DNA from: Escherichia coli
Lineage (GTDB): Bacteria > Pseudomonadota > Gammaproteobacteria > Enterobacterales > Enterobacteriaceae
Assembly: GCF_041248615.1 (NCBI RefSeq)
Contig: NZ_CP158426.1
DNA: 64,000 nt
Direction: 5' to 3' (one strand)
Numbering within the stretch: the first letter of the stretch is position 1; every line of letters starts with the position of its first letter. The notes beneath the pieces are model-generated. The model ran no database searches and had not been told where the DNA came from. It worked only from the letters and a program-made list of their open reading frames with translations. Shown one piece after another: positions 38,853 through 53,008 of this stretch. A program made the translations under genes and the position numbers.

Positions 38853-38926
38853 CATTAATGCATCTATTAATCAAATCTGGAGCAGTCTATTTCACAGCAT
38901 GCTCTCTGGCTATATGGAATAAAAAA

Positions 38927-40012
38927 GTGAAGATACTTGTTACTGGTGGCGCAGGATTTATTGGTTCTGCTGTTGTTCGTCACATAATAAATAATACGCA
39001 AGATAGTGTTGTTAATGTCGATAAATTAACATACGCCGGAAACCTGGAATCACTCGCTGAAATTTCTGATTCTGAACGTTATTCATTTGAGCATGCAGAT
39101 ATCTGCGATGCCGAAGCGATGGCTCGTATTTTCGCACAGCACCAGCCAGACGCGGTGATGCACCTGGCAGCAGAGAGCCACGTTGACCGCTCAATAACTG
39201 GCCCTGCGGCATTTATTGAAACCAATATTGTGGGTACTTATGTTCTTTTAGAAGCGGCGCGCAATTATTGGTCTGGTCTGGATGATGAAAAGAAAAAAAA
39301 CTTCCGTTTTCATCATATTTCTACTGATGAGGTGTATGGTGACTTACCCCATCCGGATGAAGTAAATAGCAATGAAACGTTGCCGCTATTTACGGAAACG
39401 ACAGCATACGCGCCAAGTAGTCCATATTCTGCTTCTAAAGCTTCCAGCGATCATTTGGTTCGCGCATGGAAACGTACTTATGGTTTACCGACCATTGTGA
39501 CTAATTGCTCGAACAACTATGGTCCTTATCATTTCCCGGAAAAGCTTATTCCACTGGTTATTCTTAATGCACTGGAAGGTAAGGCATTACCTATTTATGG
39601 CAAAGGAGATCAGATCCGCGACTGGTTGTATGTAGAGGATCATGCTCGAGCGTTATATACCGTCGTAACCGAAGGTAAAGCGGGCGAAACTTATAACATT
39701 GGTGGACACAACGAAAAGAAAAACATCGACGTAGTGTTCACTATTTGTGATTTGTTGGATGAGATAGTCCCGAAAGAGAAATCTTATCGTGAGCAAATTA
39801 CCTATGTTGCTGATCGCCCAGGGCATGATCGCCGTTATGCAATTGATGCCGATAAAATTAGCCGCGAATTGGGCTGGAAACCGCAAGAAACGTTTGAGAG
39901 CGGTATTCGTAAAACGGTGGAATGGTATCTGGCTAATACAAATTGGGTTGAGAATGTGAAAAGCGGTGCTTATCAGTCGTGGATTGAACAGAACTATGAG
40001 GGCCGCCATTAA
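38927..40012 (+). CDS. rmlB: dTDP-glucose 4,6-dehydratase
   Basis: Track ORF 38858..40012 trimmed to GTG 38927 ([14 protein letters not shown]), giving 361 aa. Catalytic YSASK. Confidence 0.93.
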
Positions 40013-40911
40013 TGAATATCCTCCTATTCGGCAAAACAGGGCAGGTAGGTTGGGAACTGCAGCGTGCTCTGGCACCGCTGGGTAATCTGATTGCTCTTGA
40101 TGTTCACTCCACTGATTATTGTGGTGATTTTAGTAATCCCGAAGGTGTAGCTGAAACTGTCAAAAAAATTCGCCCTGATGTTATTGTTAATGCGGCTGCT
40201 CACACTGCAGTAGACAAAGCGGAATCAGAACCGGAATTTGCACAATTACTTAACGCGACAAGTGTCGAAGCGATTGCAAAAGCAGCCAATGAAGTCGGCG
40301 CTTGGGTTATTCACTACTCTACTGACTACGTATTTCCGGGAACCGGTGAAATACCGTGGCAGGAGACGGATGCTACAGCACCTTTGAATGTTTATGGTGA
40401 AACTAAACTAGCCGGAGAAAAAGCGTTACAGAAACATTGCGCGAAGCATATTATTTTCCGTACCAGCTGGGTATATGCAGGTAAAGGAAATAACTTCGCC
40501 AAAACAATGTTGCGTCTGGCAAAAGAGCGCGAAGAACTGGCTGTGATAAACGATCAGTTTGGCGCACCAACAGGTGCCGAATTGCTGGCTGATTGCACCG
40601 CTCATGCCATTCGCGTAGCAGTAGACAAACCAGAAGTTGCTGGTTTGTACCATCTGGTTGCTGGCGGTACAACAACCTGGCACGATTATGCCGCTCTGGT
40701 ATTTGAAGAAGCGCGCAAAGCAGGGATTAACCTTGCTCTTAACAAACTTAACGCCGTGCCAACAACGGCCTATCCCACACCAGCCCGTCGACCCCATAAC
40801 TCTCGCCTCAATACAGAAAAGTTTCAGCAGAACTTTGCGCTTGTCTTGCCTGACTGGCAGGTGGGTGTGAAACGAATGCTCAACGAATTATTTACGACTA
40901 CGGCAATTTAA
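40012..40911 (+). CDS. rmlD: dTDP-4-dehydrorhamnose reductase
   Basis: 299 aa with Rossmann GKTGQVGWEL. ATG overlaps the rmlB TAA by 1 nt. Confidence 0.93.
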   Translation: MNILLFGKTGQVGWELQRALAPLGNLIALDVHSTDYCGDFSNPEGVAETVKKIRPDVIVNAAAHTAVDKAESEPEFAQLLNATSVEAIAKAANEVGAWVIHYSTDYVFPGTGEIPWQETDATAPLNVYGETKLAGEKALQKHCAKHIIFRTSWVYAGKGNNFAKTMLRLAKEREELAVINDQFGAPTGAELLADCTAHAIRVAVDKPEVAGLYHLVAGGTTTWHDYAALVFEEARKAGINLALNKLNAVPTTAYPTPARRPHNSRLNTEKFQQNFALVLPDWQVGVKRMLNELFTTTAI

Positions 40912-40969
40912 CAAATTTTTGCATCTCGCTCATGATGCCAGAGCGGGATGAATTAAAAGGAATGGTGAA

Positions 40970-41848
40970 ATGAAAACGCGTAAAGGTATTATTCTGGCTG
41001 GTGGTTCCGGCACTCGTCTTTATCCTGTGACGATGGCAGTAAGTAAACAACTGCTGCCGATTTATGATAAGCCGATGATTTATTATCCGCTTTCAACGCT
41101 TATGTTAGCGGGTATTCGCGATATTCTTATTATCAGTACGCCACAGGATACGCCGCGTTTCCAACAATTGTTGGGGGACGGGAGCCAGTGGGGGCTTAAT
41201 CTACAGTATAAAGTACAACCGAGTCCGGATGGCCTGGCGCAAGCGTTTATCATTGGTGAAGACTTTATTGGTGGCGATGATTGTGCACTTGTGCTTGGTG
41301 ATAATATCTTCTATGGACACGACTTGCCGAAATTAATGGAAGCTGCTGTTAACAAAGAAAGCGGTGCAACGGTATTTGCTTATCACGTTAATGATCCTGA
41401 ACGTTATGGTGTCGTGGAGTTTGATAATAACGGTACTGCAATTAGCCTGGAAGAAAAACCGCTGGAACCAAAAAGTAACTATGCGGTTACTGGGCTTTAT
41501 TTCTATGACAATGACGTTGTGGAAATGGCGAAAAACCTTAAGCCTTCTGCCCGAGGTGAACTGGAAATTACCGATATTAACCGTATTTATATGGAACAAG
41601 GACGTTTGTCTGTCGCTATGATGGGGCGTGGCTATGCATGGCTGGATACAGGGACGCATCAAAGTCTTATTGAAGCAAGCAACTTCATTGCCACCATTGA
41701 AGAGCGCCAGGGACTAAAGGTTTCCTGTCCGGAAGAAATTGCTTATCGTAAAGGGTTTATTGATGCTGAGCAGGTAAAAGTATTAGCCGAACCGTTGAAG
41801 AAAAATGCTTATGGTCAGTATCTGCTCAAAATGATTAAAGGTTATTAA
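40970..41848 (+). CDS. rmlA: Glucose-1-phosphate thymidylyltransferase
   Basis: 292 aa with [11 protein letters not shown]. Recognised as RmlA/RfbA. Confidence 0.95.
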
Positions 41849-41852
41849 TAAG

Positions 41853-42398
41853 ATGAACGTAATTAAAACTGAAATTCCTGATGTATTAATATTTGAACCA
41901 AAAGTATTTGGGGATGAGCGTGGTTTTTTTATGGAAAGCTTCAATCAGAAAGTTTTCGAAGAAGCTGTGGGGCGGAAGGTTGAATTTGTTCAGGATAACC
42001 ATTCTAAGTCTACTAAAGGAGTAATTAGAGGATTACATTTTCAATTACCACCTTATTCACAGGCAAAATTAGTACGCTGTGTAGTAGGTGAGGTATATGA
42101 CGTTGTTGTTGATATAAGGAAAGATTCTAAAACTTTTGGCAAATGGGTCGGTGTAAATCTTTCTGCTGAAAACAAGCGACAGTTGTGGATTCCAGAAGGA
42201 TTCGCCCATGGTTTTGAAGTGATTAGTGAAGTCGCTCATTTTTTATACAAAACAAATAATTATTATAATGCAACTATGGAAAAAGGTATAAGATGGGATG
42301 ATGAATATTTAGCTATTAATTGGAAAGAAAAAAAAGCGATAATCTCTGAGAAAGACATGAAACAACCATCATTCAGAGAACTTTTTGAGAAAGTTTAA
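41853..42398 (+). CDS. rmlC: dTDP-4-dehydrorhamnose 3,5-epimerase
   Basis: 181 aa cupin with FGDERGFF and RGLHFQ motifs. Confidence 0.93.
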   Translation: MNVIKTEIPDVLIFEPKVFGDERGFFMESFNQKVFEEAVGRKVEFVQDNHSKSTKGVIRGLHFQLPPYSQAKLVRCVVGEVYDVVVDIRKDSKTFGKWVGVNLSAENKRQLWIPEGFAHGFEVISEVAHFLYKTNNYYNATMEKGIRWDDEYLAINWKEKKAIISEKDMKQPSFRELFEKV

Positions 42399-42401
42399 TT
42401 G

Positions 42402-43832
42402 ATGAATAACAAACTAGCCAGGCAAGGATTATTATGGAGCACAATTGAAAGGCTAGGAACGCAAGCCATACAATTATTATTAATGTTGTATTTGGGTAGG
42501 GTTCTTGGACCAAGCTCTTTTGGTTATGTTGGTATGCTAACTTTATTTCTATCATTAGCTCAGGTTCTAATTGATAGTGGATTTAGTGCAGCATTAATTA
42601 GAAAATCGGAGCGTACTGAAAAAGATTATTCGACAGTATTTATATTTAATATTTGTCTATCAATACTAATATATATTGTACTTTATTGTTTATCTTCTTA
42701 TATTGCTTTATTCTATCAAATACCTCTGCTGGAATCTTTACTTGATATTTTAGCATTAACAGTTATAGCAAATGGTCTAACTTTAATCCCCAAGATTCAA
42801 CTCACTGTAGACGTGAATTTTAAGATCCAAGCTAAAAGTTCACTTATCGCTATTACCAGTAGTAGTGTAATAGCGATAACGTTAGCTGCTTTGGGTTATG
42901 GAGTATGGACATTGGTTTTCCAATCGTTATCCTATAGTGTCATAAATTGTATTGTACTGAATATTTATAATCCATGGTATCCAAAAGAGAAATTTTGCTA
43001 TGAAACATTCAAAAAGCTATTTTCATTTAGCAGTAACTTACTAATTGCTGGAGTACTTGAAGCTTTTTATTCAAATATATATCAATTAATTATAGGGAAA
43101 TTTTTTACACCACAGCTTGTAGGGCAATTTACACAGGCTAATCAGATCTCTAGCGTACCTGCAATGACACTTACTAATATTATTCAGAGAGTAACTTATC
43201 CACTTTTTTGTAATATTTATAATGGCAAAGGGAAAATAGATGATGCTTATTTAAACACACTTAAAATTGCAGGCGTTGTAGTTTTTCCAATTCTATTAGG
43301 AATAGGTTTAATCTCGAAGCCATTAGTCTCTGTATTATTAGGAAGTGAGTGGAAATTTACATCTGATATTCTGTTTCTACTTTGTATTGCATTTATGATT
43401 TATCCTATACATGCAATAAATATTAATATCCTACAGGTTCATGGGCGAAGTGATCTTTTTTTGCGTTTGGAAATACTAAAAAAGACATTGATGACAATTA
43501 TTCTTGTCATTACGATGCAAATAAATATAAATGCAATGGTGATTGGTTTAGTTTTACACTCATATCTTTCGTGGTTTTTAAATGGATTATTTAGCCAGAA
43601 AGTATCAACGATCACAATAAGGAAGCAGTTAAAAGAGTTACTACCTATATGGTGTCTATGTTTAATTAGTGGGTTAGGTTCTAACTATATTATAAATGAA
43701 ATAAGTATGGAACCTTTATTAAATATAATATTTACTATTTTATTAAATGCCATTATATACATCACACTAATTCGAATTATGTACAAAGAAATATTTATGA
43801 CTATTATTTCTCTTATAAAAAATAAGGGCTGA
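42402..43832 (+). CDS. wzx: O-antigen flippase (Wzx, MOP family)
   Basis: About 476 aa, AT-rich, with more than 10 predicted TM helices. The track starts at TTG 42399; the ATG at 42402 is more likely. Confidence 0.85.
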   Translation: MNNKLARQGLLWSTIERLGTQAIQLLLMLYLGRVLGPSSFGYVGMLTLFLSLAQVLIDSGFSAALIRKSERTEKDYSTVFIFNICLSILIYIVLYCLSSYIALFYQIPLLESLLDILALTVIANGLTLIPKIQLTVDVNFKIQAKSSLIAITSSSVIAITLAALGYGVWTLVFQSLSYSVINCIVLNIYNPWYPKEKFCYETFKKLFSFSSNLLIAGVLEAFYSNIYQLIIGKFFTPQLVGQFTQANQISSVPAMTLTNIIQRVTYPLFCNIYNGKGKIDDAYLNTLKIAGVVVFPILLGIGLISKPLVSVLLGSEWKFTSDILFLLCIAFMIYPIHAININILQVHGRSDLFLRLEILKKTLMTIILVITMQININAMVIGLVLHSYLSWFLNGLFSQKVSTITIRKQLKELLPIWCLCLISGLGSNYIINEISMEPLLNIIFTILLNAIIYITLIRIMYKEIFMTIISLIKNKG

Positions 43833-43834
43833 AA

Positions 43835-44947
43835 ATGAACGATAAAACTATTCCAGTAACGCAACCTTCTTTGCCGGAACTTGCAGAATTCATGCCTTAC
43901 CTGGAAAAAATATGGAAAAATAAATGGTTGACAAATAATGGACCATTTCATCAAGAACTCGAGGAAAAATTATGTGAATTTTTGGGTGTGCAGCATATCT
44001 CGCTTTTTAACAATGCAACAATTGCATTGATCACAGCATTACAAGCCCTAAGAATAACAGGTGAGGTAATAACAACACCATATTCATTTGTTGCAACTTC
44101 ACATGCTATTTTATGGAATGGACTTACGCCTGTCTTTGTTGATATTGAAAATGATGGATATAATATTGATTACAGAAAAATAGAACAGGCTATTACACCA
44201 AAAACTTCAGCAATTTTACCTGTCCATTGCTACTCAACACCCTGTGAAGTCGAAGAAATTCAAAAAATAGCTGATAATTATGGATTGAAAGTAATCTACG
44301 ACGCAGCACATGCATTCGGTGTAAATTTTAAAGGGCAAAGTTTACTTAACTATGGTGATTTATCAATTCTTAGTTTCCATGCGACGAAAGTCTTCAATAC
44401 ATTTGAAGGTGGGGCAATAATTAGCCCTGATGCTAAAACCAAGTTACGTATAGATCGATTAAAAAACTTTGGTATCGCCGACGAGCTGACTGTGACAGCT
44501 CCAGGAATAAATGGCAAAATGAGTGAAATTAATGCTGCCTTTGGACTTGTTCAGTTAAAGCATATTGAGGGCTCAATATCTAAGCGAAAAATAATTGATA
44601 GTCTTTACCGGAATTTACTGAAAGGGACTCCGGGTATTACTATATTTCCAGGAAATATAAATGCAAATAGCAACTATTCATATTTTCCTATACTCATAGA
44701 TGATGGTTTTCATATGAGTCGTGATCAGGCATATGAATTACTTAAGAAAAATAATATCCTATCTCGAAAGTATTTTTATCCATTAATCAGTAATATGCCT
44801 ATGTATCGAGGATTGATTTCAGCTAGCGTTGATAATCTACCAATAGCCAATAGTGTTGCTGATAAAGTCCTATGCTTGCCAATATATACAGATTTAAATG
44901 AAGAGATTGTTGTGAAAATAACCAAATTATTATTGGGTAAGATGTGA
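43835..44947 (+). CDS. vioA: DegT/DnrJ/EryC1-family PLP aminotransferase, likely dTDP-4-amino-4,6-dideoxy-D-glucose (viosamine) synthase
   Basis: 370 aa with the PLP-lysine context LSFHATKVF. It follows rmlBDAC, precedes an acetyltransferase, and no 3,4-isomerase gene is present. The vioA symbol rests on the O7-like context. Confidence 0.7.
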   Translation: MNDKTIPVTQPSLPELAEFMPYLEKIWKNKWLTNNGPFHQELEEKLCEFLGVQHISLFNNATIALITALQALRITGEVITTPYSFVATSHAILWNGLTPVFVDIENDGYNIDYRKIEQAITPKTSAILPVHCYSTPCEVEEIQKIADNYGLKVIYDAAHAFGVNFKGQSLLNYGDLSILSFHATKVFNTFEGGAIISPDAKTKLRIDRLKNFGIADELTVTAPGINGKMSEINAAFGLVQLKHIEGSISKRKIIDSLYRNLLKGTPGITIFPGNINANSNYSYFPILIDDGFHMSRDQAYELLKKNNILSRKYFYPLISNMPMYRGLISASVDNLPIANSVADKVLCLPIYTDLNEEIVVKITKLLLGKM

Positions 44948-44948
44948 T

Positions 44949-45527
44949 ATGGCCTATTTAGATGAAATACAGTTAAAAGAAATGGGCTTCAAAAGCGTTG
45001 GAGAAAATGTAAAAATATCAGATAAGGCATCTTTTTATGGGTGTGATAATATTAGTATTGGGAATAATGTAAGGATTGATGATTTTTGCGTGTTTTCAGC
45101 TGGAGAGGGTGGTATTGATATACACGATTATATTCATATAGCGGTATATTCTTCAATTATTGGCAAAGGAAAAGTAACTATATCTGACTACGCAAACATT
45201 TCATCTCGAGTCTCAATATATTCCAGTAACGATGATTATTCTGGCAATTATATGTCTAATCCAGTAGTTCCAAGTGAATATACGAATATACATAGCGGTA
45301 CTGTATTTATAGGCAAACATGTTATCATAGGTTGCGGAAGTATTGTTCTTCCGGATGTTATTTTACATGAGGGTGCAGCAATTGGAGCTCTTTCTGTAGT
45401 CAAAGAGGATTGTGAAGCTTTTACGGTAAATGTAGGTATACCAGCTAAACCAATATCTGAAAGAAGCAAGAAATTATTGGAGCTTGAATCTGTATTTAAA
45501 CCAAGCGCTATTGGAGATAATCTGTGA
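44949..45527 (+). CDS. vioB: Hexapeptide-repeat N-acetyltransferase (likely dTDP-viosamine acetyltransferase)
   Basis: 192 aa with left-handed beta-helix repeats (ISIGNNVRIDDFCVF, VIIGCGSIVLPDV). Adjacent to the aminotransferase. Confidence 0.65.
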   Translation: MAYLDEIQLKEMGFKSVGENVKISDKASFYGCDNISIGNNVRIDDFCVFSAGEGGIDIHDYIHIAVYSSIIGKGKVTISDYANISSRVSIYSSNDDYSGNYMSNPVVPSEYTNIHSGTVFIGKHVIIGCGSIVLPDVILHEGAAIGALSVVKEDCEAFTVNVGIPAKPISERSKKLLELESVFKPSAIGDNL

Positions 45528-46270
45528 AGATTCATATTTATTTTCGGCATACGGATATTAGTCGGACAACTAAAAATAATCGGCCTGAGTGGTTTAGTCA
45601 TGAAAATTGTTTTATAAATCTTATAAATACAATAAAAGAATCTAAATATAAAGACCAAATAGCATTTACTTTTATTTTTGATGGATCATTAAACGTTGCT
45701 TCCTTAGATCCGTTATATCAACACTTTGAAAATATCGATATGAATAATAAAAAGATATTCATAATCAATGGAGGAGATCAGCGCAAAGCATGGCGTGAAT
45801 GCGTAAAACTAGTAGATGAAGATCGTCGAGTTGGAAAAATTGATAAAAATGATTTAATATATTTTTTAGAAAATGATTATTTGCATGAGTCTAAATGGAT
45901 TGATGAGATATTTAACTTGGTCAAATCAAATATAAGATGGGATATGGCAACGCTTTATGATCATCCAGATAAATATAGTGAATATTGTGAACATCTTGAT
46001 TCATTAAAAAATAAAAACAAAAAAACTATTGTATTTTATTCTGGGAGTAGGCATTGGAAAATAGCACCAAGTACATGTGCAACATATATTATGAAAGCCA
46101 GGGTTTTTGATAGGACAAAAATAATTCTAAAATTAGCTATTTACGATTACAAATTATTTTTGATACTTACTAAAATATTTAGAATTAGACTTCTTTCACC
46201 TATCCCCGCTCTTTCAACTCATTGTATGGCTTCTTTGTTATCACCTTCAATCAATTGGGATGATTTATAA
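45524..46270 (+). CDS. Hypothetical protein, candidate non-canonical GT-A-like glycosyltransferase
   Basis: 248-aa ORF whose GTG start overlaps the vioB stop. Weak GT-A hints only (KIHIYF beta-strand start, FIFDGS, YFLENDYLH as a DXD-like site). No family recognised. Confidence 0.6.
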   Translation: MKIHIYFRHTDISRTTKNNRPEWFSHENCFINLINTIKESKYKDQIAFTFIFDGSLNVASLDPLYQHFENIDMNNKKIFIINGGDQRKAWRECVKLVDEDRRVGKIDKNDLIYFLENDYLHESKWIDEIFNLVKSNIRWDMATLYDHPDKYSEYCEHLDSLKNKNKKTIVFYSGSRHWKIAPSTCATYIMKARVFDRTKIILKLAIYDYKLFLILTKIFRIRLLSPIPALSTHCMASLLSPSINWDDL

Positions 46271-47091
46271 TGGATTGTAAAAAAAAATTATGCATTGTGG
46301 CCTGTTCTTATACTTTAAAGCCAGAATTCATAATTAATAAATTATATAATTATTTACCAGATTATGAACTAGATGGTGTTGTGATTTCCAATAATCATGT
46401 AGTAGAACAGATTACAATGAAGGGATTTCATATCGAAAACGGGACAAATTCTCTTTTTGAGTTTTCTGCCTATAAGGAAGGAATAGATTTTTTAGAAGAT
46501 AGCTCATTATTACCATCAGGAGTACCAATTCTCATTTTGAATGATACATTGTTCTTGAAACATAATGCAAAATTCTTTTTAAGGAAAATTGTGAGTTATT
46601 ATTCAACAATTCAAAGAACTGAATTGCCTACAATGGCAGGTCGTTTAGATCCTTATAATAATATATGTTACAGTAACCCTTGGAATAATATGAATGGCTA
46701 TATATCTTCCTTTTGTATGCTAATAAATGAAAAATCTGCAAAAATAATTGTTAGTTGCTACAATGAGCTTCCAAAATATTTTTTTAGTAATGATATTGAT
46801 ATTATTGACCCCAAATGGGGAATGCAGATTGAATCAAGACTGAGAGAATTTATTCGTAGTCATTTAATTGATATAGACACAGATACGGTTTGGTATCAAG
46901 CTAAATTGTTACATAATGATAAACAACGAATTAATATTAAAGCTCAATGTGTCTTCATGGAACATTTCATATCAGGGAAGATTGGTGAAAGTGGAATTGT
47001 TGTTTCTATTTTTCCCACATGGAAAGGAAAGGTGTTAAATTTTTTAAACGAGCAATTGGCTAAAATCAAGAGGAAGATTATAATTAAATGA
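46270..47091 (+). CDS. Hypothetical protein, candidate glycosyltransferase of unknown family
   Basis: 273-aa ORF coupled at both ends (TAATG at 46270, ATGA at 47088). No recognisable motif except ILILNDT. The call rests on position in the O-unit block. Confidence 0.55.
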   Translation: MDCKKKLCIVACSYTLKPEFIINKLYNYLPDYELDGVVISNNHVVEQITMKGFHIENGTNSLFEFSAYKEGIDFLEDSSLLPSGVPILILNDTLFLKHNAKFFLRKIVSYYSTIQRTELPTMAGRLDPYNNICYSNPWNNMNGYISSFCMLINEKSAKIIVSCYNELPKYFFSNDIDIIDPKWGMQIESRLREFIRSHLIDIDTDTVWYQAKLLHNDKQRINIKAQCVFMEHFISGKIGESGIVVSIFPTWKGKVLNFLNEQLAKIKRKIIIK

Positions 47092-48263
47092 GGAAAAATT
47101 TTTACACGACACCAATCACATTACTAATTCTTACGCTTAATATTGCTGCAACAATTGTAGTTATAAACAACAGTGAATTATTGATTGGCGATTTAATGGG
47201 GTTTAAATCAGAAACTGTCGTAATAATTCAATCTCTAATTTATATATCTCTTAGCTTATTATTTCTATCGGTATTATATAATGGATTGGAAAAAATAAAA
47301 CCACTTACAACAAAATTAGCTGATTCTAATAGTAGACCGATCGCCATTTTTTTAATTTGTTTAGAATTATTATATATAACATACGTATTTAATACAGGCT
47401 TATTTGTTGCCGGTAATAATGAGCGCGGAGGCGGAGTAATTTCAGCGTTATTTGTATTACTGAATGTTGATGTACTTGTTTTAATATTTCTAACACATGT
47501 TAAAACAAGTAAGTACAAGCCCATTATTATCATGTTGTGGATTATTTCTTTTCTTCAGCGTGGTTGGATATCTTATTTTTTCATTTTGATTTTAATCTCA
47601 TTTATCGATCGTCGATTGAAAAACAAAAAAAATTGGAAAGCTGGGGTAGTATTAATATGTTTTATTCTGGCTCTGCCATTTGTAGAACAGATTAAGAATT
47701 CTATCAGAAGTGGCGAAGCTATCAGCACGCAATTAACTTTTTTTGATTATGCGGATTCTTTTAATCAACAATTTATGAAGGTTGTTGGCAGAGTTCAAAC
47801 AGTTTCACACGTTGCATTTATAACAGATAATATTAATCAACTTCAGAATTTAAAAAATAATGGAGAATCTACTGATTTTTTTGAAGAAAATTTTATTTAT
47901 ATAATTGCTAAAAAATTAGGGAGTGCTGATGATAAGATTAATACTCCAGATTTGCTTGCCAGATATATTTCTCCATCTCTGGATAGCTCATGGAATGTGA
48001 ATCCATCGTTAATTGGTTGGATTTTTATTCAAAATGATTTATACGTTTTACCCATCATATGGGTTGTTTTGCTGTGTTTTCTATTTACAATGCTATCTAA
48101 AATTATTGCGAATGACCTATATGCAATGAATATGAGATGGTTGTTTTGGTTAGTGTTTTTATTTCCGGGTTGGATATTCCAATTCACAGCAGTTATATTT
48201 TCGCTTTTAGTATTTATTTTATTAAAGTACACACTTAGGACTAAAAGAGTAAAACCTTTATGA
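47088..48263 (+). CDS. wzy: O-antigen polymerase (Wzy)
   Basis: 391 aa, very AT-rich, about 10 TM helices with a large loop, and no close recognisable homologue. This is typical of Wzy, and it is the only other polytopic protein besides Wzx. Confidence 0.75.
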   Translation: MRKNFYTTPITLLILTLNIAATIVVINNSELLIGDLMGFKSETVVIIQSLIYISLSLLFLSVLYNGLEKIKPLTTKLADSNSRPIAIFLICLELLYITYVFNTGLFVAGNNERGGGVISALFVLLNVDVLVLIFLTHVKTSKYKPIIIMLWIISFLQRGWISYFFILILISFIDRRLKNKKNWKAGVVLICFILALPFVEQIKNSIRSGEAISTQLTFFDYADSFNQQFMKVVGRVQTVSHVAFITDNINQLQNLKNNGESTDFFEENFIYIIAKKLGSADDKINTPDLLARYISPSLDSSWNVNPSLIGWIFIQNDLYVLPIIWVVLLCFLFTMLSKIIANDLYAMNMRWLFWLVFLFPGWIFQFTAVIFSLLVFILLKYTLRTKRVKPL

Positions 48264-49372
48264 CGAAAATAGTTTTCAATTTACTATCTTTTTCAGAATT
48301 AAAATATTATGGGGTTGGAGTATACTTTAGAGATTTAATTGCAAAAAATATTAATGAAATATTCGATGGGATTGATTGCGAAATAATAGTTGTTCACCAG
48401 GCTAATATCCCTGTTAAAGAATTGTTCAATTTTCCAGAAAACAATAATATTACCTATAATCCTGTAAAAGGCATTAATGGGAAATTTTTGCGTGTTATTT
48501 ACGAACAGATATTTATGCCGATTAAATTTCGTAACTATAACATAATTTATTCCCCAAATAATATTAATCCGATTCTTTTGGGGGCTAAATGTAAGTCAAT
48601 AATTACTATTCATGACTTGTTTCCATTTAGAAAGGCTAATAGATTTGGTCTTCTACAAAGATTGTATCTAAAGTTTTTCACATATATGTGTGCTCACAAA
48701 TCGGAAAAAATCGCTACAGTGTCCAATAATTCAAAAAATGATATTATCAATACCCTTAATGTCAAGAGCGATAAGGTTATTGTAACTTACAATATATTAG
48801 GTGATTTTAAAAAATCCTCTATACACCAATATGATTGTGAACCTTTTTTTTTCTCGGTGGGTGCTTTGCATGAAGATAAACAATACGATTTGATGATAAA
48901 GGCTTTTCTAAAGTTCAAAAAATTAGTCAATGATAATTGTAAATTATTAATTGCTGGGGGTGATCATGGAGCTAAGAAAATTTTACAGGACTTGATTGAT
49001 GAATTAAAATTAAATGACCATGTTCAATTATTAGGATATATCACTGATGAAGATAAGTGGGACTACTATGAAAATTGTTGTGCACTTATCTTACTAGGGA
49101 AATATGAAGGTTTTGGTATTCCTGTATTGGAAGCTATGAGTGTCAATAAGCCATCAATTGTAGCAAATACCGGGGCTCTACCTGAGATCATAGGTAAAGC
49201 AGGATTTGTCATAAATGCTGATATTGATTCAATTTGTGATGCTATGTTAAAAAGCTATTCATATAAAGTTGACCCAAAATTGTTTGAAGATGAATTATCA
49301 CGCTTTTCTACTAATAAACAAATAAATACTTTGCAGCACATGTTTAAGGAAATATGTAAAGATGTCAGATGA
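48260..49372 (+). CDS. GT4-family glycosyltransferase (retaining, mannosyl/hexosyl type)
   Basis: 370 aa with the EX7E motif YEGFGIPVLEAM. Start overlaps the wzy stop. Confidence 0.8.
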   Translation: MTKIVFNLLSFSELKYYGVGVYFRDLIAKNINEIFDGIDCEIIVVHQANIPVKELFNFPENNNITYNPVKGINGKFLRVIYEQIFMPIKFRNYNIIYSPNNINPILLGAKCKSIITIHDLFPFRKANRFGLLQRLYLKFFTYMCAHKSEKIATVSNNSKNDIINTLNVKSDKVIVTYNILGDFKKSSIHQYDCEPFFFSVGALHEDKQYDLMIKAFLKFKKLVNDNCKLLIAGGDHGAKKILQDLIDELKLNDHVQLLGYITDEDKWDYYENCCALILLGKYEGFGIPVLEAMSVNKPSIVANTGALPEIIGKAGFVINADIDSICDAMLKSYSYKVDPKLFEDELSRFSTNKQINTLQHMFKEICKDVR

Positions 49373-50189
49373 CACTCCAAAGTTTTCTGTTTTGATGGCT
49401 ATATACATCAAGGATTCTCCCCTATTTCTCTCTGAGGCTTTACAATCAATTTATAAAAATACGGTTGCCCCAGATGAAGTTATTATTATTCGTGATGGTA
49501 AGGTCACATCTGAACTCAATTCTGTTATTGATAGTTGGAGAAGATATTTAAATATAAAAGATTTCACACTTGAAAAAAATATGGGGTTGGGGGCAGCGTT
49601 AAATTTTGGGTTGAATCAATGTATGCATGATTTAGTAATACGTGCTGATTCTGATGATATAAATAGAACAAATCGATTCGAATGTATACTTGATTTTATG
49701 ACTAAGAATGGTGATGTTCATATTCTTAGCTCTTGGGTTGAAGAGTTCGAATTCAATCCAGGAGATAAGGGCATAATAAAAAAAGTACCAAGTCGGAATT
49801 CTATACTTAAATATTCAAAAAACAGATCTCCTTTTAATCACCCTGCAGTTGCATTTAAAAAGTGTGAAATAATGCGCGTCGGTGGTTATGGAAATGAGTA
49901 CTTATATGAAGATTATGCCCTTTGGTTGAAATCTTTAGCTAATGGATGTAATGGTGATAATATTCAACAAGTTTTAGTTGATATGAGATTTTCAAAGGAA
50001 ACAGCAAAAAGACGAGGTGGAATAAAATATGCCATTTCAGAAATTAAAGCTCAGTATCATTTTTATCGTGCAAATTATATATCATATCAAGACTTTATAA
50101 TAAATATTATCACAAGGATATTTGTTAGACTTCTTCCCACTAGTTTTCGTGGCTATATATATAAAAAAGTTATCAGGAGATTTTTATGA
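49362..50189 (+). CDS. GT2-family glycosyltransferase (WbbD-like, likely acts on GlcNAc-PP-Und)
   Basis: 275 aa with FSVLMAIY, IIIRDG and RADSDDI (DXD). Overlaps the previous gene by 11 nt. Confidence 0.8.
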   Translation: MSDDTPKFSVLMAIYIKDSPLFLSEALQSIYKNTVAPDEVIIIRDGKVTSELNSVIDSWRRYLNIKDFTLEKNMGLGAALNFGLNQCMHDLVIRADSDDINRTNRFECILDFMTKNGDVHILSSWVEEFEFNPGDKGIIKKVPSRNSILKYSKNRSPFNHPAVAFKKCEIMRVGGYGNEYLYEDYALWLKSLANGCNGDNIQQVLVDMRFSKETAKRRGGIKYAISEIKAQYHFYRANYISYQDFIINIITRIFVRLLPTSFRGYIYKKVIRRFL

Positions 50190-51610
50190 GCTCACCTCTT
50201 ATTCCGGTTATATTAAGTGGTGGTAATGGTACTAGGTTATGGCCACTATCTAGAGAGGAATATCCTAAGCAGTTTTTAAAACTAACCGACTCAATATCAA
50301 TGCTGCAATCAACAATATCTCGGTTAGACTCATTAAATACTTCCTCTCCAGTTGTAATATGCAATGAATTACACAGATTTATTGTTGCAGAACAACTCAG
50401 GCACTTAAATAAATTAGATAATAATATTATTTTAGAACCATCTGGTCGCAATACTGCACCTGCTATTTGTATTGCTGCTTTAATTTTAAAAATGAAGCAT
50501 CCAAATGAAAATCCACTTATGCTCGTTCTTCCAGCCGATCACTCCGTAAAAAAAGTCAAAACTTTTTGTAATACAATAAAAAGTGCTATTCCCTTCGCTG
50601 AAGCTGGTAATTTGGTTTCTTTTGGTATTAAACCTACTCATCCTGAGACGGGGTATGGATATATACAAAAAGGCAAAGTGTTATCTGATTCTGATATATA
50701 TGAGGTCAGTGAAGTTAGAACTTTTGTTGAAAAGCCTAATCTTAAAACAGCAGAAAGCTTTATAGAAAAAGATGAGTATTATTGGAATAGTGGTATGTAT
50801 TTGTTTAGTGTTGAACGTTACTTACAAGAGTTATCATTATACCGACCAGACATAGTTAAAGTATGCCAGGAAACTGTTAAAAATATTCATTATGATATGG
50901 ATTTTATTAGATTGGACGATAAAATATTTCGGAACTGTCCACAGGAGTCTATTGATTATGCTGTAATGGAGAAAACAAAGGATGCTGTAGTTGCTACAAT
51001 GGATATCGGTTGGAATGATGTAGGAGCATGGTCTTCGCTTTGGGAATTAGGGAAAAAAGACTCCTCTGGTAATGTTATCACGGGAGACATCGTTTGCCAC
51101 GAGACAGAAAATAGTTATATTTATACTGAGTCTGGATTGGTAGCAACTATTGGTATTCAAGATCTTGTTATTATTCATACTAAAGATTCATTACTGGTTT
51201 CCAGACGTGATTCAGTACAAAATGTAAAAAATATTGTTCAGCATCTTGATTTGTCAGGACGTAAAGAACATAAAGAACATAGGGAAGTATTCAAGTCATG
51301 GGGACGATGTGACTCCATAGATAGTAGTGAAAAGTACCACTATCAGGTCAAACGAATAACAGTTAATCCAAGTGAAAAATTATCGTTGCAATTGCATCAT
51401 CACCGTGCGGAACATTGGGTTGTTGTAATGGGGATTGCTAAAGTTACAGTTGCAGAAGAAATAAAAATTTTAAAAGAGAATGAGTCTGTATATATTCCTG
51501 CAGGTATTAAGCATAGTTTGGAAAATATTGGGACAATACCACTTGTGTTAATAGAAGTTTGGACCGGTTCTTATCTTGCTGATGATGATATCCTTCGATT
51601 TGAAGATTGA
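50186..51610 (+). CDS. manC: Mannose-1-phosphate guanylyltransferase (O-antigen copy)
   Basis: 474 aa with GGNGTRLWPLSR and the cupin [13 protein letters not shown]-rich, and clearly divergent from cpsB (roughly 55-65% aa identity by eye). Confidence 0.93.
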   Translation: MSSPLIPVILSGGNGTRLWPLSREEYPKQFLKLTDSISMLQSTISRLDSLNTSSPVVICNELHRFIVAEQLRHLNKLDNNIILEPSGRNTAPAICIAALILKMKHPNENPLMLVLPADHSVKKVKTFCNTIKSAIPFAEAGNLVSFGIKPTHPETGYGYIQKGKVLSDSDIYEVSEVRTFVEKPNLKTAESFIEKDEYYWNSGMYLFSVERYLQELSLYRPDIVKVCQETVKNIHYDMDFIRLDDKIFRNCPQESIDYAVMEKTKDAVVATMDIGWNDVGAWSSLWELGKKDSSGNVITGDIVCHETENSYIYTESGLVATIGIQDLVIIHTKDSLLVSRRDSVQNVKNIVQHLDLSGRKEHKEHREVFKSWGRCDSIDSSEKYHYQVKRITVNPSEKLSLQLHHHRAEHWVVVMGIAKVTVAEEIKILKENESVYIPAGIKHSLENIGTIPLVLIEVWTGSYLADDDILRFED

Positions 51611-51643
51611 TATGGTAGAGCTTAGAAATAGAGAGTCTTAATA

Positions 51644-53008
51644 ATGCTAACTTGCTTTAAAGCTTATGATATTCGCGGGAAACTAGGCGAAGAACTGAAT
51701 GAAGATATCGCCTGGCGCATTGGGCGTGCCTATGGCGAATTTCTCAAACCGAAAACCATTGTGTTAGGCGGTGATGTCCGCCTCACCAGCGAAACCTTAA
51801 AACTGGCGCTGGCGAAAGGTTTACAGGATGCGGGCGTCGATGTGCTGGATATCGGTATGTCCGGCACCGAAGAGATCTATTTCGCCACGTTCCATCTCGG
51901 CGTGGATGGCGGCATTGAAGTTACCGCCAGCCATAATCCGATGGATTATAACGGCATGAAGCTGGTGCGCGAGGGGGCTCGCCCGATCAGCGGGGATACC
52001 GGACTGCGCGATGTCCAGCGCCTGGCAGAAGCCAACGACTTCCCCCCCGTTGACGAAACCAAACGCGGTCGCTATCAGCAAATCAATCTGCGTGACGCTT
52101 ACGTTGATCACCTGTTCGGTTATATCAATGTCAAAAACCTCACGCCGCTCAAGCTGGTGATTAACTCCGGGAACGGCGCGGCGGGTCCGGTGGTGGACGC
52201 TATCGAAGCCCGCTTTAAAGCCCTCGGCGCACCTGTGGAATTAATCAAAGTACACAACACGCCGGACGGCAATTTCCCCAACGGTATTCCTAACCCGCTG
52301 CTGCCGGAATGCCGCGACGACACCCGCAATGCAGTCATCAAACACGGCGCGGATATGGGCATTGCCTTTGATGGCGATTTTGACCGCTGTTTCCTGTTTG
52401 ACGAAAAAGGGCAGTTTATCGAGGGCTACTACATTGTCGGTCTTCTGGCAGAAGCGTTCCTCGAAAAAAATCCCGGCGCGAAGATCATCCACGATCCGCG
52501 TCTCTCCTGGAACACCGTTGATGTGGTGACCGCCGCGGGCGGCACTCCGGTGATGTCGAAAACCGGACACGCCTTTATTAAAGAACGTATGCGCAAGGAA
52601 GACGCCATCTACGGTGGCGAAATGAGCGCCCACCACTATTTCCGTGATTTCGCTTACTGCGACAGCGGCATGATCCCGTGGCTGCTGGTCGCCGAACTGG
52701 TGTGTCTGAAAGGAAAAACGCTGGGCGAACTGGTGCGCGACCGGATGGCGGCGTTTCCGGCAAGCGGTGAGATCAACAGCAAACTGGCGCACCCCGTTGA
52801 GGCGATTAATCGCGTCGAACAGCATTTTAGCCGCGAGGCGCTGGCGGTGGATCGCACCGATGGCATCAGCATGACCTTTGCCGACTGGCGCTTTAACCTG
52901 CGCTCCTCCAACACCGAACCGGTGGTGCGGTTGAATGTGGAATCGCGCGGTGATGTACCGTTGATGGAAGAAAAGACAAAACTTATCCTTGAGTTACTGA
53001 ACAAGTAA
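51644..53008 (+). CDS. manB: Phosphomannomutase (O-antigen copy, mosaic with cpsG-like body)
   Basis: 454 aa with TASHNP. Differs from CpsG at 4 residues (A/V, H/R, S/P, Q/H) until the last 12 codons, which diverge ([13 protein letters not shown] vs [13 protein letters not shown]). Confidence 0.93.
51647..52970 (+). repeat. Copy 2 of the ~1.3-kb direct repeat (manB body)
   Basis: GC-rich tract matching 29222..30545, embedded between AT-rich manC and the AT-rich manB 3' tail. Confidence 0.85.

What the first reader, a model, noticed from the sequence alone, without database searches (positions are those of the whole stretch)
45524..47091. Two coupled O-cluster ORFs with no canonical glycosyltransferase signature
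The 248-aa and 273-aa products sit where glycosyltransferases are expected. An O7-type unit needs four transferases after WecA, and only two recognisable ones (GT4 at 48260, GT2 at 49362) are present. Neither shows a GT2 or GT4 signature that I can recognise. The first has only weak GT-A hints (FIFDGS, YFLENDYLH). The second has essentially none (ILILNDT). They are soluble-looking, very AT-rich, and tightly coupled to vioB and wzy. They may represent poorly characterised transferase families, for example for dTDP-VioNAc or dTDP-Rha, or a different modifying activity.
Basis: partly seen in the sequence, partly recalled or inferred. Interest (0 to 1): 0.55.

Follow-up and report, generated by a model that had tools for sequence, protein, structure and literature searches.

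The report
Two unclassified O7 O-antigen glycosyltransferases
The two genes are the already catalogued but never tested wbbA and wbbB of the E. coli O7 O-antigen cluster: both are predicted to have a standard glycosyltransferase fold although no curated sequence family recognises them, and they most likely add the viosamine and rhamnose sugars.

Summary
The 248-aa ORF (45524-46270) and the 273-aa ORF (46270-47091) are real. They are translationally coupled to vioB and wzy, have 29% GC, look soluble, and sit in a complete E. coli O7 O-antigen cluster that is 100% identical to sequenced O7 genomes.

Neither protein matches Pfam, NCBIfam or any PDB sequence. Both AlphaFold models are confident, and both resemble GT-A (nucleotide-sugar transferase) folds:

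Comparative genomics assigns the sugars:
- ORF1 relatives travel with VioA orthologues and are missing where vioAB is missing, which points to a Qui4NAc (VioNAc) transferase.
- ORF2 relatives persist without vioAB. They occur with rml genes even where manC and the GT4 gene are absent, which points to the rhamnose branch transferase.

The genes were named wbbA and wbbB in 1999 as putative transferases, so this is a refinement, not a discovery. ORF2 belongs to a small, uncurated family, which gives the finding moderate interest.

The parts
38858..42398 (+). rmlB, rmlD, rmlA, rmlC: dTDP-L-rhamnose pathway. RmlA and RmlB also feed dTDP-viosamine synthesis.
   Evidence: ORFs; RefSeq names.
42399..43832 (+). 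wzx, O7-family flippase
   Evidence: Pfam Polysacc_synt_3 at 1.8e-79; RefSeq name.
43835..44947 (+). vioA, dTDP-4-amino-4,6-dideoxy-D-glucose aminotransferase
   Evidence: Pfam DegT_DnrJ_EryC1 at 1.8e-100; RefSeq name. Orthologues at 56-81% identity flank ORF1 homologues elsewhere.
44949..45527 (+). vioB, viosamine N-acetyltransferase. Its stop overlaps the ORF1 start.
   Evidence: Hexapep hit; RefSeq name; GTGA overlap.
45524..46270 (+). ORF1 = wbbA, 248 aa. Predicted GT-A-fold glycosyltransferase from an uncurated family; proposed dTDP-Qui4NAc (VioNAc) transferase.
45680..45685 (+). Conserved in at least 90% of 60 homologues, at the end of predicted strand 46-53. Candidate nucleotide-binding Asp.
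   Evidence: Alignment A2; secondary structure. The role is inferred.
45869..45877 (+). ORF1 E116-N117-D118, inside 'YFLENDYLH'. Invariant, at the end of predicted strand 111-116. This is the position of the DXD metal/diphosphate motif in GT-A enzymes.
   Evidence: Invariant columns in A2; strand position. The role is inferred.
46217..46222 (+). ORF1 T232-H233 ('STHCM'), invariant. Candidate C-terminal metal or substrate ligand.
   Evidence: The role is inferred.
46270..47091 (+). ORF2 = wbbB, 273 aa. Predicted GT-A-like N-terminal domain plus a helical C-terminal part ending in a basic helix. Small uncurated family. Proposed dTDP-L-Rha transferase that adds the Rha branch to Man.
46540..46545 (+). 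ORF2 N91-D92, inside 'ILILNDT'. Invariant across 60 relatives down to 20% identity, at the end of predicted strand 87-91. A single-Asp counterpart of DXD.
   Evidence: Alignment A3; secondary structure. The role is inferred.
46960..46965 (+). ORF2 E231-H232. E231 is invariant and H232 is conserved in at least 90% of relatives. Candidate catalytic or ligand residues in the C-terminal helical part.
   Evidence: The role is inferred.
47088..48263 (+). wzy, O-unit polymerase (O6/O28-type subfamily). Its start overlaps the ORF2 stop.
   Evidence: NCBIfam NF033860 at 2e-80; ATGA overlap.
48260..49372 (+). GT4 glycosyltransferase (wbbC); proposed alpha-mannosyltransferase
   Evidence: Pfam Glycos_transf_1 at 5.5e-31. 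It is found with manC/manB and is missing together with them in L017-L019. The sugar assignment is inferred.
49362..50189 (+). wbbD, GT2 UDP-Gal:GlcNAc-PP-Und beta-1,3-galactosyltransferase (shown experimentally in the literature)
   Evidence: Pfam Glycos_transf_2 at 3.1e-17; RefSeq name; PMC4202792 and PMC7685785 citing Riley et al. 2005.
50186..53008 (+). manC and manB, GDP-mannose supply

Best explanation
ORF1 (wbbA) and ORF2 (wbbB) are the two remaining cytoplasmic O-unit glycosyltransferases of the E. coli O7 antigen. The O7 unit is Qui4NAc-Man(Rha)-Gal-GlcNAc, built on undecaprenyl diphosphate.

Proposed order of assembly:
1. WecA starts the unit with GlcNAc-P.
2. WbbD adds beta-1,3-Gal (shown experimentally in the literature).
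3. The GT4 protein adds Man from GDP-Man.
4. ORF2/WbbB adds the L-Rha side branch to Man from dTDP-L-Rha.
5. ORF1/WbbA adds the terminal Qui4NAc (VioNAc) to Man from the dTDP-Qui4NAc made by RmlA, RmlB, VioA and VioB.
6. Wzx flips the unit and Wzy polymerises it.

Both proteins are single-domain, soluble, GT-A-fold enzymes. They would hold the dTDP-sugar diphosphate at an acidic motif after the fourth beta strand: E116-N117-D118 in ORF1 and N91-D92 in ORF2.

Status of each step:
- Shown here: the ORFs, their coupling, the absence of curated family hits, the predicted folds, the conserved motifs, and the gene co-occurrence patterns.
- Inferred: donor and acceptor specificity, inverting chemistry, metal dependence, and the order of the last two additions.
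For: - **Count of transferases.** The unit has five sugars (PMC7857678), so four transferases are needed after WecA. The cluster holds only WbbD, one GT4 protein, ORF1 and ORF2.
- **ORF1 sequence link to GT2.** 7 of 60 family members weakly hit Pfam GT2 (best E 3.2e-6).
- **Motif position.** The invariant residues sit where GT-A enzymes carry DXD.
- **ORF1 travels with vioA.** VioA orthologues (56-81% identity) lie next to ORF1 homologues in Kluyvera, L013, Pandoraea, Polaromonas and 12 metagenome contigs. ORF1 is absent from the otherwise syntenic E. albertii, E. coli TOE3 and Enterobacter clusters, which lack vioAB.
- **ORF2 does not depend on vioAB.** ORF2 homologues persist in those vioAB-less clusters, together with rmlBDAC.
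- **ORF2 travels with rml, not man.** In L017-L019 ORF2 homologues occur with rml genes (including rmlC and rmlD) but without manC or the GT4 gene.
- **Gene order.** wbbA, wbbB, (wzy), wbbC, wbbD is the reverse of the proposed order of action. PMC7685785 reports this pattern for 39% of E. coli clusters.
- **Remote ORF1 relatives.** They also sit in glycan-synthesis clusters.
Against: - No enzyme assay or mutant exists for either protein or for any homologue found. The names found are only 'glycosyl transferase', 'sugar polymerase', 'WbbB' or 'hypothetical'.
- ORF2 has a single Asp in place of DXD.
- ORF2 homologues in Pandoraea (L008), L011, L015 and the P0147 contig show no rml genes in the DNA available. 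The donor may therefore differ across the family, or the rml genes may lie elsewhere.
- rml genes are common in O-antigen clusters generally, so their co-occurrence with ORF2 is weak evidence.
- Many remote ORF1 relatives have no vioA nearby. The family as a whole is not viosamine-specific.
- GT4-family L-rhamnosyltransferases are known (my own knowledge). The split between the GT4 protein and ORF2 rests on co-occurrence only.
- The linkage details of the O7 unit come from my memory of L'vov et al. 1984. Only the composition was verified here.
Confidence: 0.6

Rival explanations
1. Both are glycosyltransferases, but ORF2 and the GT4 protein swap roles. ORF2/WbbB would be the mannosyltransferase (GDP-Man to Gal) and the GT4 protein would add L-rhamnose. 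ORF1 would still add Qui4NAc.
Against: L017, L018 and L019 carry ORF1h-ORF2h-wzy-wbbD-like genes with rml genes (rmlC and rmlD in L018) but no manC and no O7-like GT4 gene. A ~250-aa gene fills that slot instead; in L017 it is GT32-like. L012 has an ORF2 homologue with rmlA/C/D and no manC. A retaining GT4 enzyme fits an alpha-Man linkage made from GDP-alpha-Man.
Confidence: 0.13
2. The specificities are swapped: ORF1/WbbA adds L-rhamnose and ORF2/WbbB adds Qui4NAc.
For: Both donors are dTDP-sugars and both genes follow vioB directly. Nothing in the sequences names the sugar. Many remote ORF1 relatives lack vioA nearby.
Against: ORF2 homologues (44% identity) sit in the E. albertii, E. coli TOE3 and Enterobacter clusters, which have no vioA or vioB. 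ORF1 homologues are absent from those clusters. ORF1 homologues lie directly beside VioA orthologues in at least 16 independent contigs, several with no rmlC or rmlD in 10-kb flanks, for example L047.
Confidence: 0.06
3. ORF2/WbbB is not a Leloir glycosyltransferase. It would be another nucleotide-dependent enzyme or a partner of the Wzy polymerase (its database label is 'sugar polymerase'), and one of the other three transferases would do two additions.
Against: ORF2 lacks the glycine-rich loop after strand 1 that nucleotidyltransferases use; the sequence there is VACSYTLKPE. It has no TM segment, so it cannot itself be a Wzy. One homologue sits in an ABC-transporter cluster that has no Wzy (L015). 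The count of sugars against transferases in O7 needs a fourth transferase. All nucleotide-sugar pathways needed for O7 are already complete without it.
Confidence: 0.08

Closest known systems
WbbD of E. coli O7 and other GT2-family (Pfam PF00535) GT-A O-antigen transferases
   Same: Same cluster, similar size (248-275 aa), soluble, predicted GT-A fold, and action on Und-PP-linked acceptors. 7 of 60 ORF1 relatives weakly hit PF00535.
   Different: ORF1 and ORF2 themselves do not hit PF00535 at E <= 1. hhalign of either family profile against WbbD gives a probability below 1%. The motif is END (ORF1) or ND (ORF2) instead of DXD.
GnT-I (GT13), GnT-II (GT16) and POMGnT1: inverting GT-A beta-1,2-GlcNAc transferases acting on mannose
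   Different: Sequence identity is 7-12%. They are eukaryotic Golgi enzymes that use UDP-GlcNAc. There is no evidence of common descent beyond the shared fold.
GlfT2 (GT2) and mannosylglycerate synthase (GT78)
   Different: Sequence identity is 4-9%. The Foldseek E-value is never below 1e-3. ORF2 has its own helical C-terminal part (residues ~189-272) and a single-Asp motif.
VioT (P. syringae) / OrfN (P. aeruginosa): the genetically defined viosamine-derivative transferase of flagellin glycosylation
   Same: It would carry out the same kind of step as proposed for ORF1, transferring an N-acyl-viosamine from its dTDP form, and it is likewise encoded beside vioA and vioB (PMC3927599).
   Different: VioT is a 1,173-aa protein that acts on flagellin-linked rhamnan. 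ORF1 is 248 aa and acts on a lipid-linked O unit. Their sequences were not compared here.
Wzy O-antigen polymerases (ORF2 is labelled 'sugar polymerase' in RefSeq and UniProt)
   Same: Only the label and the position next to wzy are shared.
   Different: Wzy proteins are multi-pass membrane proteins. ORF2 has no hydrophobic segment and has a Rossmann-like soluble fold. The label looks like a misnomer.

Membership tests
GT2 (Pfam PF00535 Glycos_transf_2) | Significant match to the family profile | tested here: not met
   Neither ORF1 nor ORF2 hits the profile at E <= 1. Among relatives, 7 of 60 ORF1-family members hit weakly (best E 3.2e-6) and 0 of 60 ORF2-family members hit. hhalign against WbbD gives a probability below 1%.
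GT4 / GT-B (Pfam PF00534, PF13439) | Match to the profile and a two-domain GT-B fold | tested here: not met
   No hit. Both models are single Rossmann-like domains that match GT-A structures.
GT-A fold superfamily (nucleotide-diphospho-sugar transferases) | A single alpha/beta/alpha Rossmann-like domain that superposes on solved GT-A enzymes | tested here: met
GT-A fold superfamily | A DXD (or EXD) acidic motif at the end of strand beta-4 that binds metal and diphosphate | tested here: inconclusive
   ORF1 has invariant E116-N117-D118 at the end of strand 111-116. ORF2 has only invariant N91-D92 at the end of strand 87-91. The position is right but the sequence is atypical. Metal binding was not tested.
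Sugar-phosphate nucleotidyltransferases (IspD, MobA, KdsB, RmlA type) | A glycine-rich loop (GxGxR-like) directly after strand beta-1 | tested here: not met
Wzy polymerase ('sugar polymerase' label on ORF2) | A multi-pass integral membrane protein | tested here: not met
   The maximum 19-residue Kyte-Doolittle score is 1.32, against 2.76 for the adjacent Wzy. There is no match to NF033860 or Wzy_C.
Viosamine (Qui4NAc) transferase, as a functional class, for ORF1 | Encoded with the dTDP-viosamine pathway (vioA with or without vioB) and absent when that pathway is absent | tested here: met
   VioA orthologues at 56-81% identity lie beside ORF1 homologues in Kluyvera, L013, Pandoraea, Polaromonas and 12 metagenome contigs. 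ORF1 is absent from the vioAB-less sister clusters. This holds for the clade nearest ORF1 and does not hold for the remote ~225-aa clade.
Viosamine or rhamnose transferase, as a functional class | Demonstrated transfer of the sugar from its dTDP donor to the acceptor | not testable with these tools
   This needs enzyme assays or mutants.
CAZy GT family assignment | Listing in, or a dbCAN HMM match to, a numbered CAZy family | not testable with these tools
   No CAZy or dbCAN library was available. The AFDB fold library was also unavailable.

The most novel reading that the evidence does not exclude
WbbB-like proteins (ORF2) would form a distinct, rare and uncurated offshoot of the GT-A superfold, with a single-Asp 'ND' motif and a private helical C-terminal domain. 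Their function would be tied to the Wzy polymerase. For example, WbbB might add the branch sugar that Wzy recognises, or it might act as a cytoplasmic partner of the polymerase. This would explain why they lie next to Wzy-like membrane proteins of three unrelated families. Separately, the WbbA clade would be the first compact (~250 aa) family of viosaminyltransferases.
Probability: 0.12. Interest if true: 0.6.

Novelty: new member of a known kind. Interest (0 to 1): 0.35.

Why it matters
O7 is a common extra-intestinal pathogenic serogroup and a glycoconjugate-vaccine antigen, and the same genes sit in E. coli B and BL21. Only one of its four O-unit transferases (WbbD) has been tested. Assigning WbbA to Qui4NAc and WbbB to Rha gives directly testable predictions. 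It would also supply parts for glyco-engineering with dTDP-sugars.

Both proteins show that curated profile libraries still miss whole families of GT-A enzymes, even in the best-studied bacterium. WbbB has only about 377 cluster representatives among 1.84 billion and no characterised member. It may therefore deserve a family definition in Pfam or CAZy.

The finding does not change how O-antigen assembly is understood.

Tried and rejected
- **Sequence profiles.** Pfam and NCBIfam gave nothing useful on the two proteins or on 60 relatives of each. The same was true of PDB sequence searches with single sequences and with the A1, A2 and A3 profiles. The only 'hits' were chance matches to an engrailed homeodomain and a VapC-type toxin.
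- **Are the two families related to each other?** No. hhalign of A1 against A2 gives a probability of 0.1%.
- **Are they related to WbbD?** No.
- **Is ORF2 restricted to Enterobacterales?** The first word-indexed search suggested so, with 10 hits. The exhaustive profile search (377 hits) and relatives in Pandoraea, Burkholderiales and Ideonella rejected it.
- **Is ORF2 strictly a partner of Wzy?** This is weakened by L015, an ABC-transporter cluster with no Wzy.
- **Database scans that fell short.** The genome-contig scan with A3 failed because no conserved stretch was available. With A4 it returned only 3 loci. The AFDB fold library was unavailable. The last homologue search with A3 was limited by its candidate cap and added no named members.
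- **Literature.** Marolda et al. 1999 and Wang et al. 2007 are not held. The wbbA/wbbB history and the O7 linkages therefore rest partly on my own knowledge. The O7 composition and the WbbD assay were confirmed from PMC7857678, PMC4202792 and PMC7685785.
- **VioT.** I considered it as a relative of ORF1. It is a 1,173-aa protein of a different type.
Full report
**1. What is there**

The window from about 38.8 to 53 kb is a complete E. coli O7 O-antigen cluster: rmlB-rmlD-rmlA-rmlC-wzx-vioA-vioB-ORF1-ORF2-wzy-GT4-wbbD-manC-manB, lying between galF and gnd. The stretch 45400-47200 is 100% identical to 96 of 5,426 complete E. coli genomes, all on chromosomes. One of them is an O7:H15 strain whose RefSeq annotation gives the same gene boundaries.

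ORF1 (45524-46270, GTG start, 248 aa) is annotated there as 'glycosyl transferase'. ORF2 (46270-47091, 273 aa) is annotated as 'hypothetical protein', or 'sugar polymerase' in other genomes. Exact-sequence look-up links ORF1 to UniProt Q9XCW2 and ORF2 to an entry named 'component WbbB of exported sugar polymer'. From my own knowledge, these are the wbbA and wbbB genes of Marolda, Feldman and Valvano (1999), proposed then as transferases. That paper is not in the library.

The junctions are GTGA (vioB/ORF1), TAATG (ORF1/ORF2) and ATGA (ORF2/wzy), so the genes are translationally coupled. GC is 0.285 and 0.291 inside a 10-kb low-GC island. Neither protein has a hydrophobic segment.

**2. No curated family recognises them**

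Pfam finds GT4 domains in the 48260 gene and a GT2 domain in wbbD. For ORF1 and ORF2 it finds nothing better than E = 0.087. NCBIfam gives nothing meaningful. PDB sequence searches give no relatives, whether with single sequences or with family profiles.

Every member of a 60-sequence alignment was scanned for each family. Seven ORF1 relatives hit Pfam GT2 weakly (best E 3.2e-6). No ORF2 relative hit any plausible family; the single hit among the 60 was a chance match to Tas3_C-hel at E 0.004. The two families are unrelated to each other and to WbbD at the profile level.

**3. Family sizes**

ORF1 has more than 524 homologues in the word-indexed search, from Enterobacterales, Burkholderiales and many marine and freshwater metagenomes. 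A metagenome scan hit its 600-stretch limit, and 569 of those stretches were confirmed as relatives.

ORF2 first looked restricted to Enterobacterales, with 10 hits. An exhaustive profile search then found 377 cluster representatives at E <= 1e-3, 40 of them at E <= 1e-30, among 1.84 billion. Only three species genomes in GTDB carry a recognisable relative. It is a genuine but small family.

**4. Folds**

AlphaFold2 with the family alignments gave confident models:

| Protein | pLDDT | pTM |
|---|---|---|
| ORF1 | 94.1 | 0.92 |
| ORF2 | 85.8 | 0.85 |

**5. Motifs**

In ORF1 the invariant columns include R20, P21, W23 and F24. They also include E116-N117-D118-Y119, at the end of predicted strand 111-116, which is the DXD position of GT-A enzymes. 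Y145-D146, H177-W178 and T232-H233 are invariant too, and D53-G54 is conserved in at least 90% of members.

In ORF2 only N91, D92, N153, K224 and E231 are invariant across 60 relatives down to 20% identity. N91-D92 sits at the end of strand 87-91.

ORF2 has no glycine-rich loop after strand 1, which argues against a nucleotidyltransferase.

**6. Which sugar?**

The O7 unit is Qui4NAc-Man(Rha)-Gal-GlcNAc (PMC7857678, citing L'vov 1984). WbbD is the experimentally shown beta-1,3-galactosyltransferase acting on GlcNAc-PP-lipid (PMC4202792 and PMC7685785). Three additions remain (Man, Rha, Qui4NAc) for three proteins (GT4, ORF1, ORF2). Neighbourhoods of homologues separate them, as the table shows.

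| Locus or group | vioA/vioB | ORF1 homologue | ORF2 homologue | rml genes | GT4 and manC/manB |
|---|---|---|---|---|---|
| Kluyvera cryocrescens and L013 | yes | yes | yes | yes | yes (whole O7 layout) |
| E. albertii, E. coli TOE3, Enterobacter hormaechei | no | no | yes (44% identity) | rmlBDAC | yes (GT4 48-54%, WbbD 51-56% identity); a different GT4, wzx and wzy replace vioA-vioB-ORF1 |
| Pandoraea apista | vioA only (66% identity) | yes (45%) | yes (35%; hhalign probability 100) | none within 10 kb | manC and a GT4 protein at 36% identity; O7-type wzy |
| Polaromonas | vioA (63%), directly adjacent | yes | no | not seen | not seen |
| L017, L018, L019 | yes in L018 and L019 | yes (not resolved by the gene caller used for L018) | yes | yes (rmlC, rmlD) | neither present; a ~250-aa gene fills the slot (GT32-like in L017) |
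| L012 | no | no | yes | rmlA, rmlC, rmlD | no manC |

Among 80 metagenome loci, 12 members of the clade nearest ORF1 lie beside VioA orthologues of 56-67% identity, several of them adjacent or overlapping.

So ORF1 follows vioA, and the GT4 protein follows manC/manB. ORF2 is independent of both and usually comes with rml genes. The gene order wbbA-wbbB-(wzy)-wbbC-wbbD is the reverse of the proposed order of action, a pattern reported for 39% of E. coli clusters.

**7. Caveats**

- Nothing in either family has been tested biochemically. The only genetically defined viosamine-derivative transferase I found, VioT, is an unrelated-looking 1,173-aa protein.
- Four ORF2 contexts (Pandoraea L008, L011, L015 and the P0147 contig) show no rml genes in the DNA available. 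rml genes are also common in O-antigen clusters generally. I put the ORF2 = rhamnosyltransferase assignment at roughly two in three.
- The remote ~225-aa clade of the ORF1 family has no vioA nearby. It does sit in glycan clusters with GT2 genes, TylF-type O-methyltransferases, WbqC and sulfotransferases. The family is therefore broader than viosamine.
- The anomeric and positional details of the O7 linkages, and hence 'inverting' chemistry for both enzymes, come from my memory of the 1984 structure and were not verified here.

**8. An unexplained regularity**

ORF2 homologues almost always lie next to a multi-pass membrane protein, and these neighbours belong to three unrelated families:
- the NF033860 O6/O28-type Wzy, in the O7-like module;
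- a Wzy_C-type protein, in E. albertii and Enterobacter;
- an unassigned type with 7-10 predicted TM segments, in L011 and L012 (48% identical to each other).

One homologue lies in an ABC-transporter cluster without any Wzy (L015), so the link is not obligatory. With so few independent arrangements the enrichment is only suggestive. It may simply reflect that branch-adding transferases and polymerases are exchanged together. The 'sugar polymerase' label on ORF2 is not supported by its sequence or predicted fold.

**9. Verdict**

These are the two 'missing' O7 transferases. Both are GT-A-fold proteins in sequence families that Pfam and NCBIfam do not cover. The genes are already catalogued as putative transferases, so the novelty lies in fold-level confirmation, motif definition and a reasoned sugar assignment (WbbA for Qui4NAc, WbbB for Rha). 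ORF2/WbbB is the more interesting of the two because its family is small, uncharacterised and structurally remote. Interest is moderate to low (0.35).

Noticed in passing
window 46270-48263; loci L002, L004, L008, L011, L012, L013, L014, L018, L019: ORF2/WbbB homologues lie directly beside multi-TM proteins of three unrelated families: the NF033860-type Wzy, a Wzy_C-type protein, and an unassigned 447-504 aa type. The one exception (L015) is an ABC-transporter cluster.
   Followed up: partly
window 46270-47091: RefSeq and UniProt label ORF2 and its relatives 'sugar polymerase'. The protein has no TM segment and a GT-A-like predicted fold, so the label looks like a propagated misnomer.
   Followed up: yes
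L009 10001-15013 (Polaromonas MAG): An ORF1 homologue is followed by a VioA orthologue (63% identity), then an E1-dehydrogenase/transketolase-like protein, then a PglD_N/hexapeptide acyltransferase with a biotin/lipoyl hit. This may be a pathway for an unusual N-acyl-viosamine.
   Followed up: no
L030 7183-13203 and L093 7827-12266 (AT-rich aquatic metagenome contigs): A remote clade of the ORF1 family (about 225 aa) sits among WbqC, TylF-type O-methyltransferase, GNAT-methyltransferase fusion, sulfotransferase, 2OG-Fe(II) oxygenase and GT2 genes, with no vioA nearby. So the family is wider than viosamine transfer.
   Followed up: partly
L016 (E. coli TOE3), L002/L003 (E. albertii), L004 (Enterobacter hormaechei): These clusters share the block ORF2h-GT4-wbbD-like-manC-manB plus rmlBDAC with O7. 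They replace wzx-vioA-vioB-ORF1-wzy with a different GT4, wzx and wzy. This is a mosaic relative of O7 found in three genera.
   Followed up: partly
L013 2509-20849 (GCA_054864335.1): A complete O7-like gene order (rmlBDAC-wzx-vioA-vioB-ORF1h-ORF2h-wzy-GT4-GT2-manC-manB) is followed by a WecA-like gene, wzz and a PglL/Wzy_C gene. This is a setting unlike the enterobacterial galF-gnd locus. The organism was not identified.
   Followed up: no
window 50186-51610 versus L001 13787-15210: manC is intact in the window (474 aa) but is flagged as frameshifted in the reference O7:H15 strain ST70.
   Followed up: no
window 45524-47091 versus E. coli B/BL21 genomes: The laboratory strains BL21 and C43(DE3) carry ORF2 at 99.8% identity, with the ORF1 ('glycosyl transferase') gene and O7-family wzy annotated beside it. 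The untested enzymes are thus present in a standard expression host.
   Followed up: no
window 41500-51500: There is a sharp low-GC island (0.29-0.35) from rmlC to manC, set within flanks of about 0.45-0.56 GC. This is typical of horizontally exchanged serotype-specific O-antigen genes.
   Followed up: no
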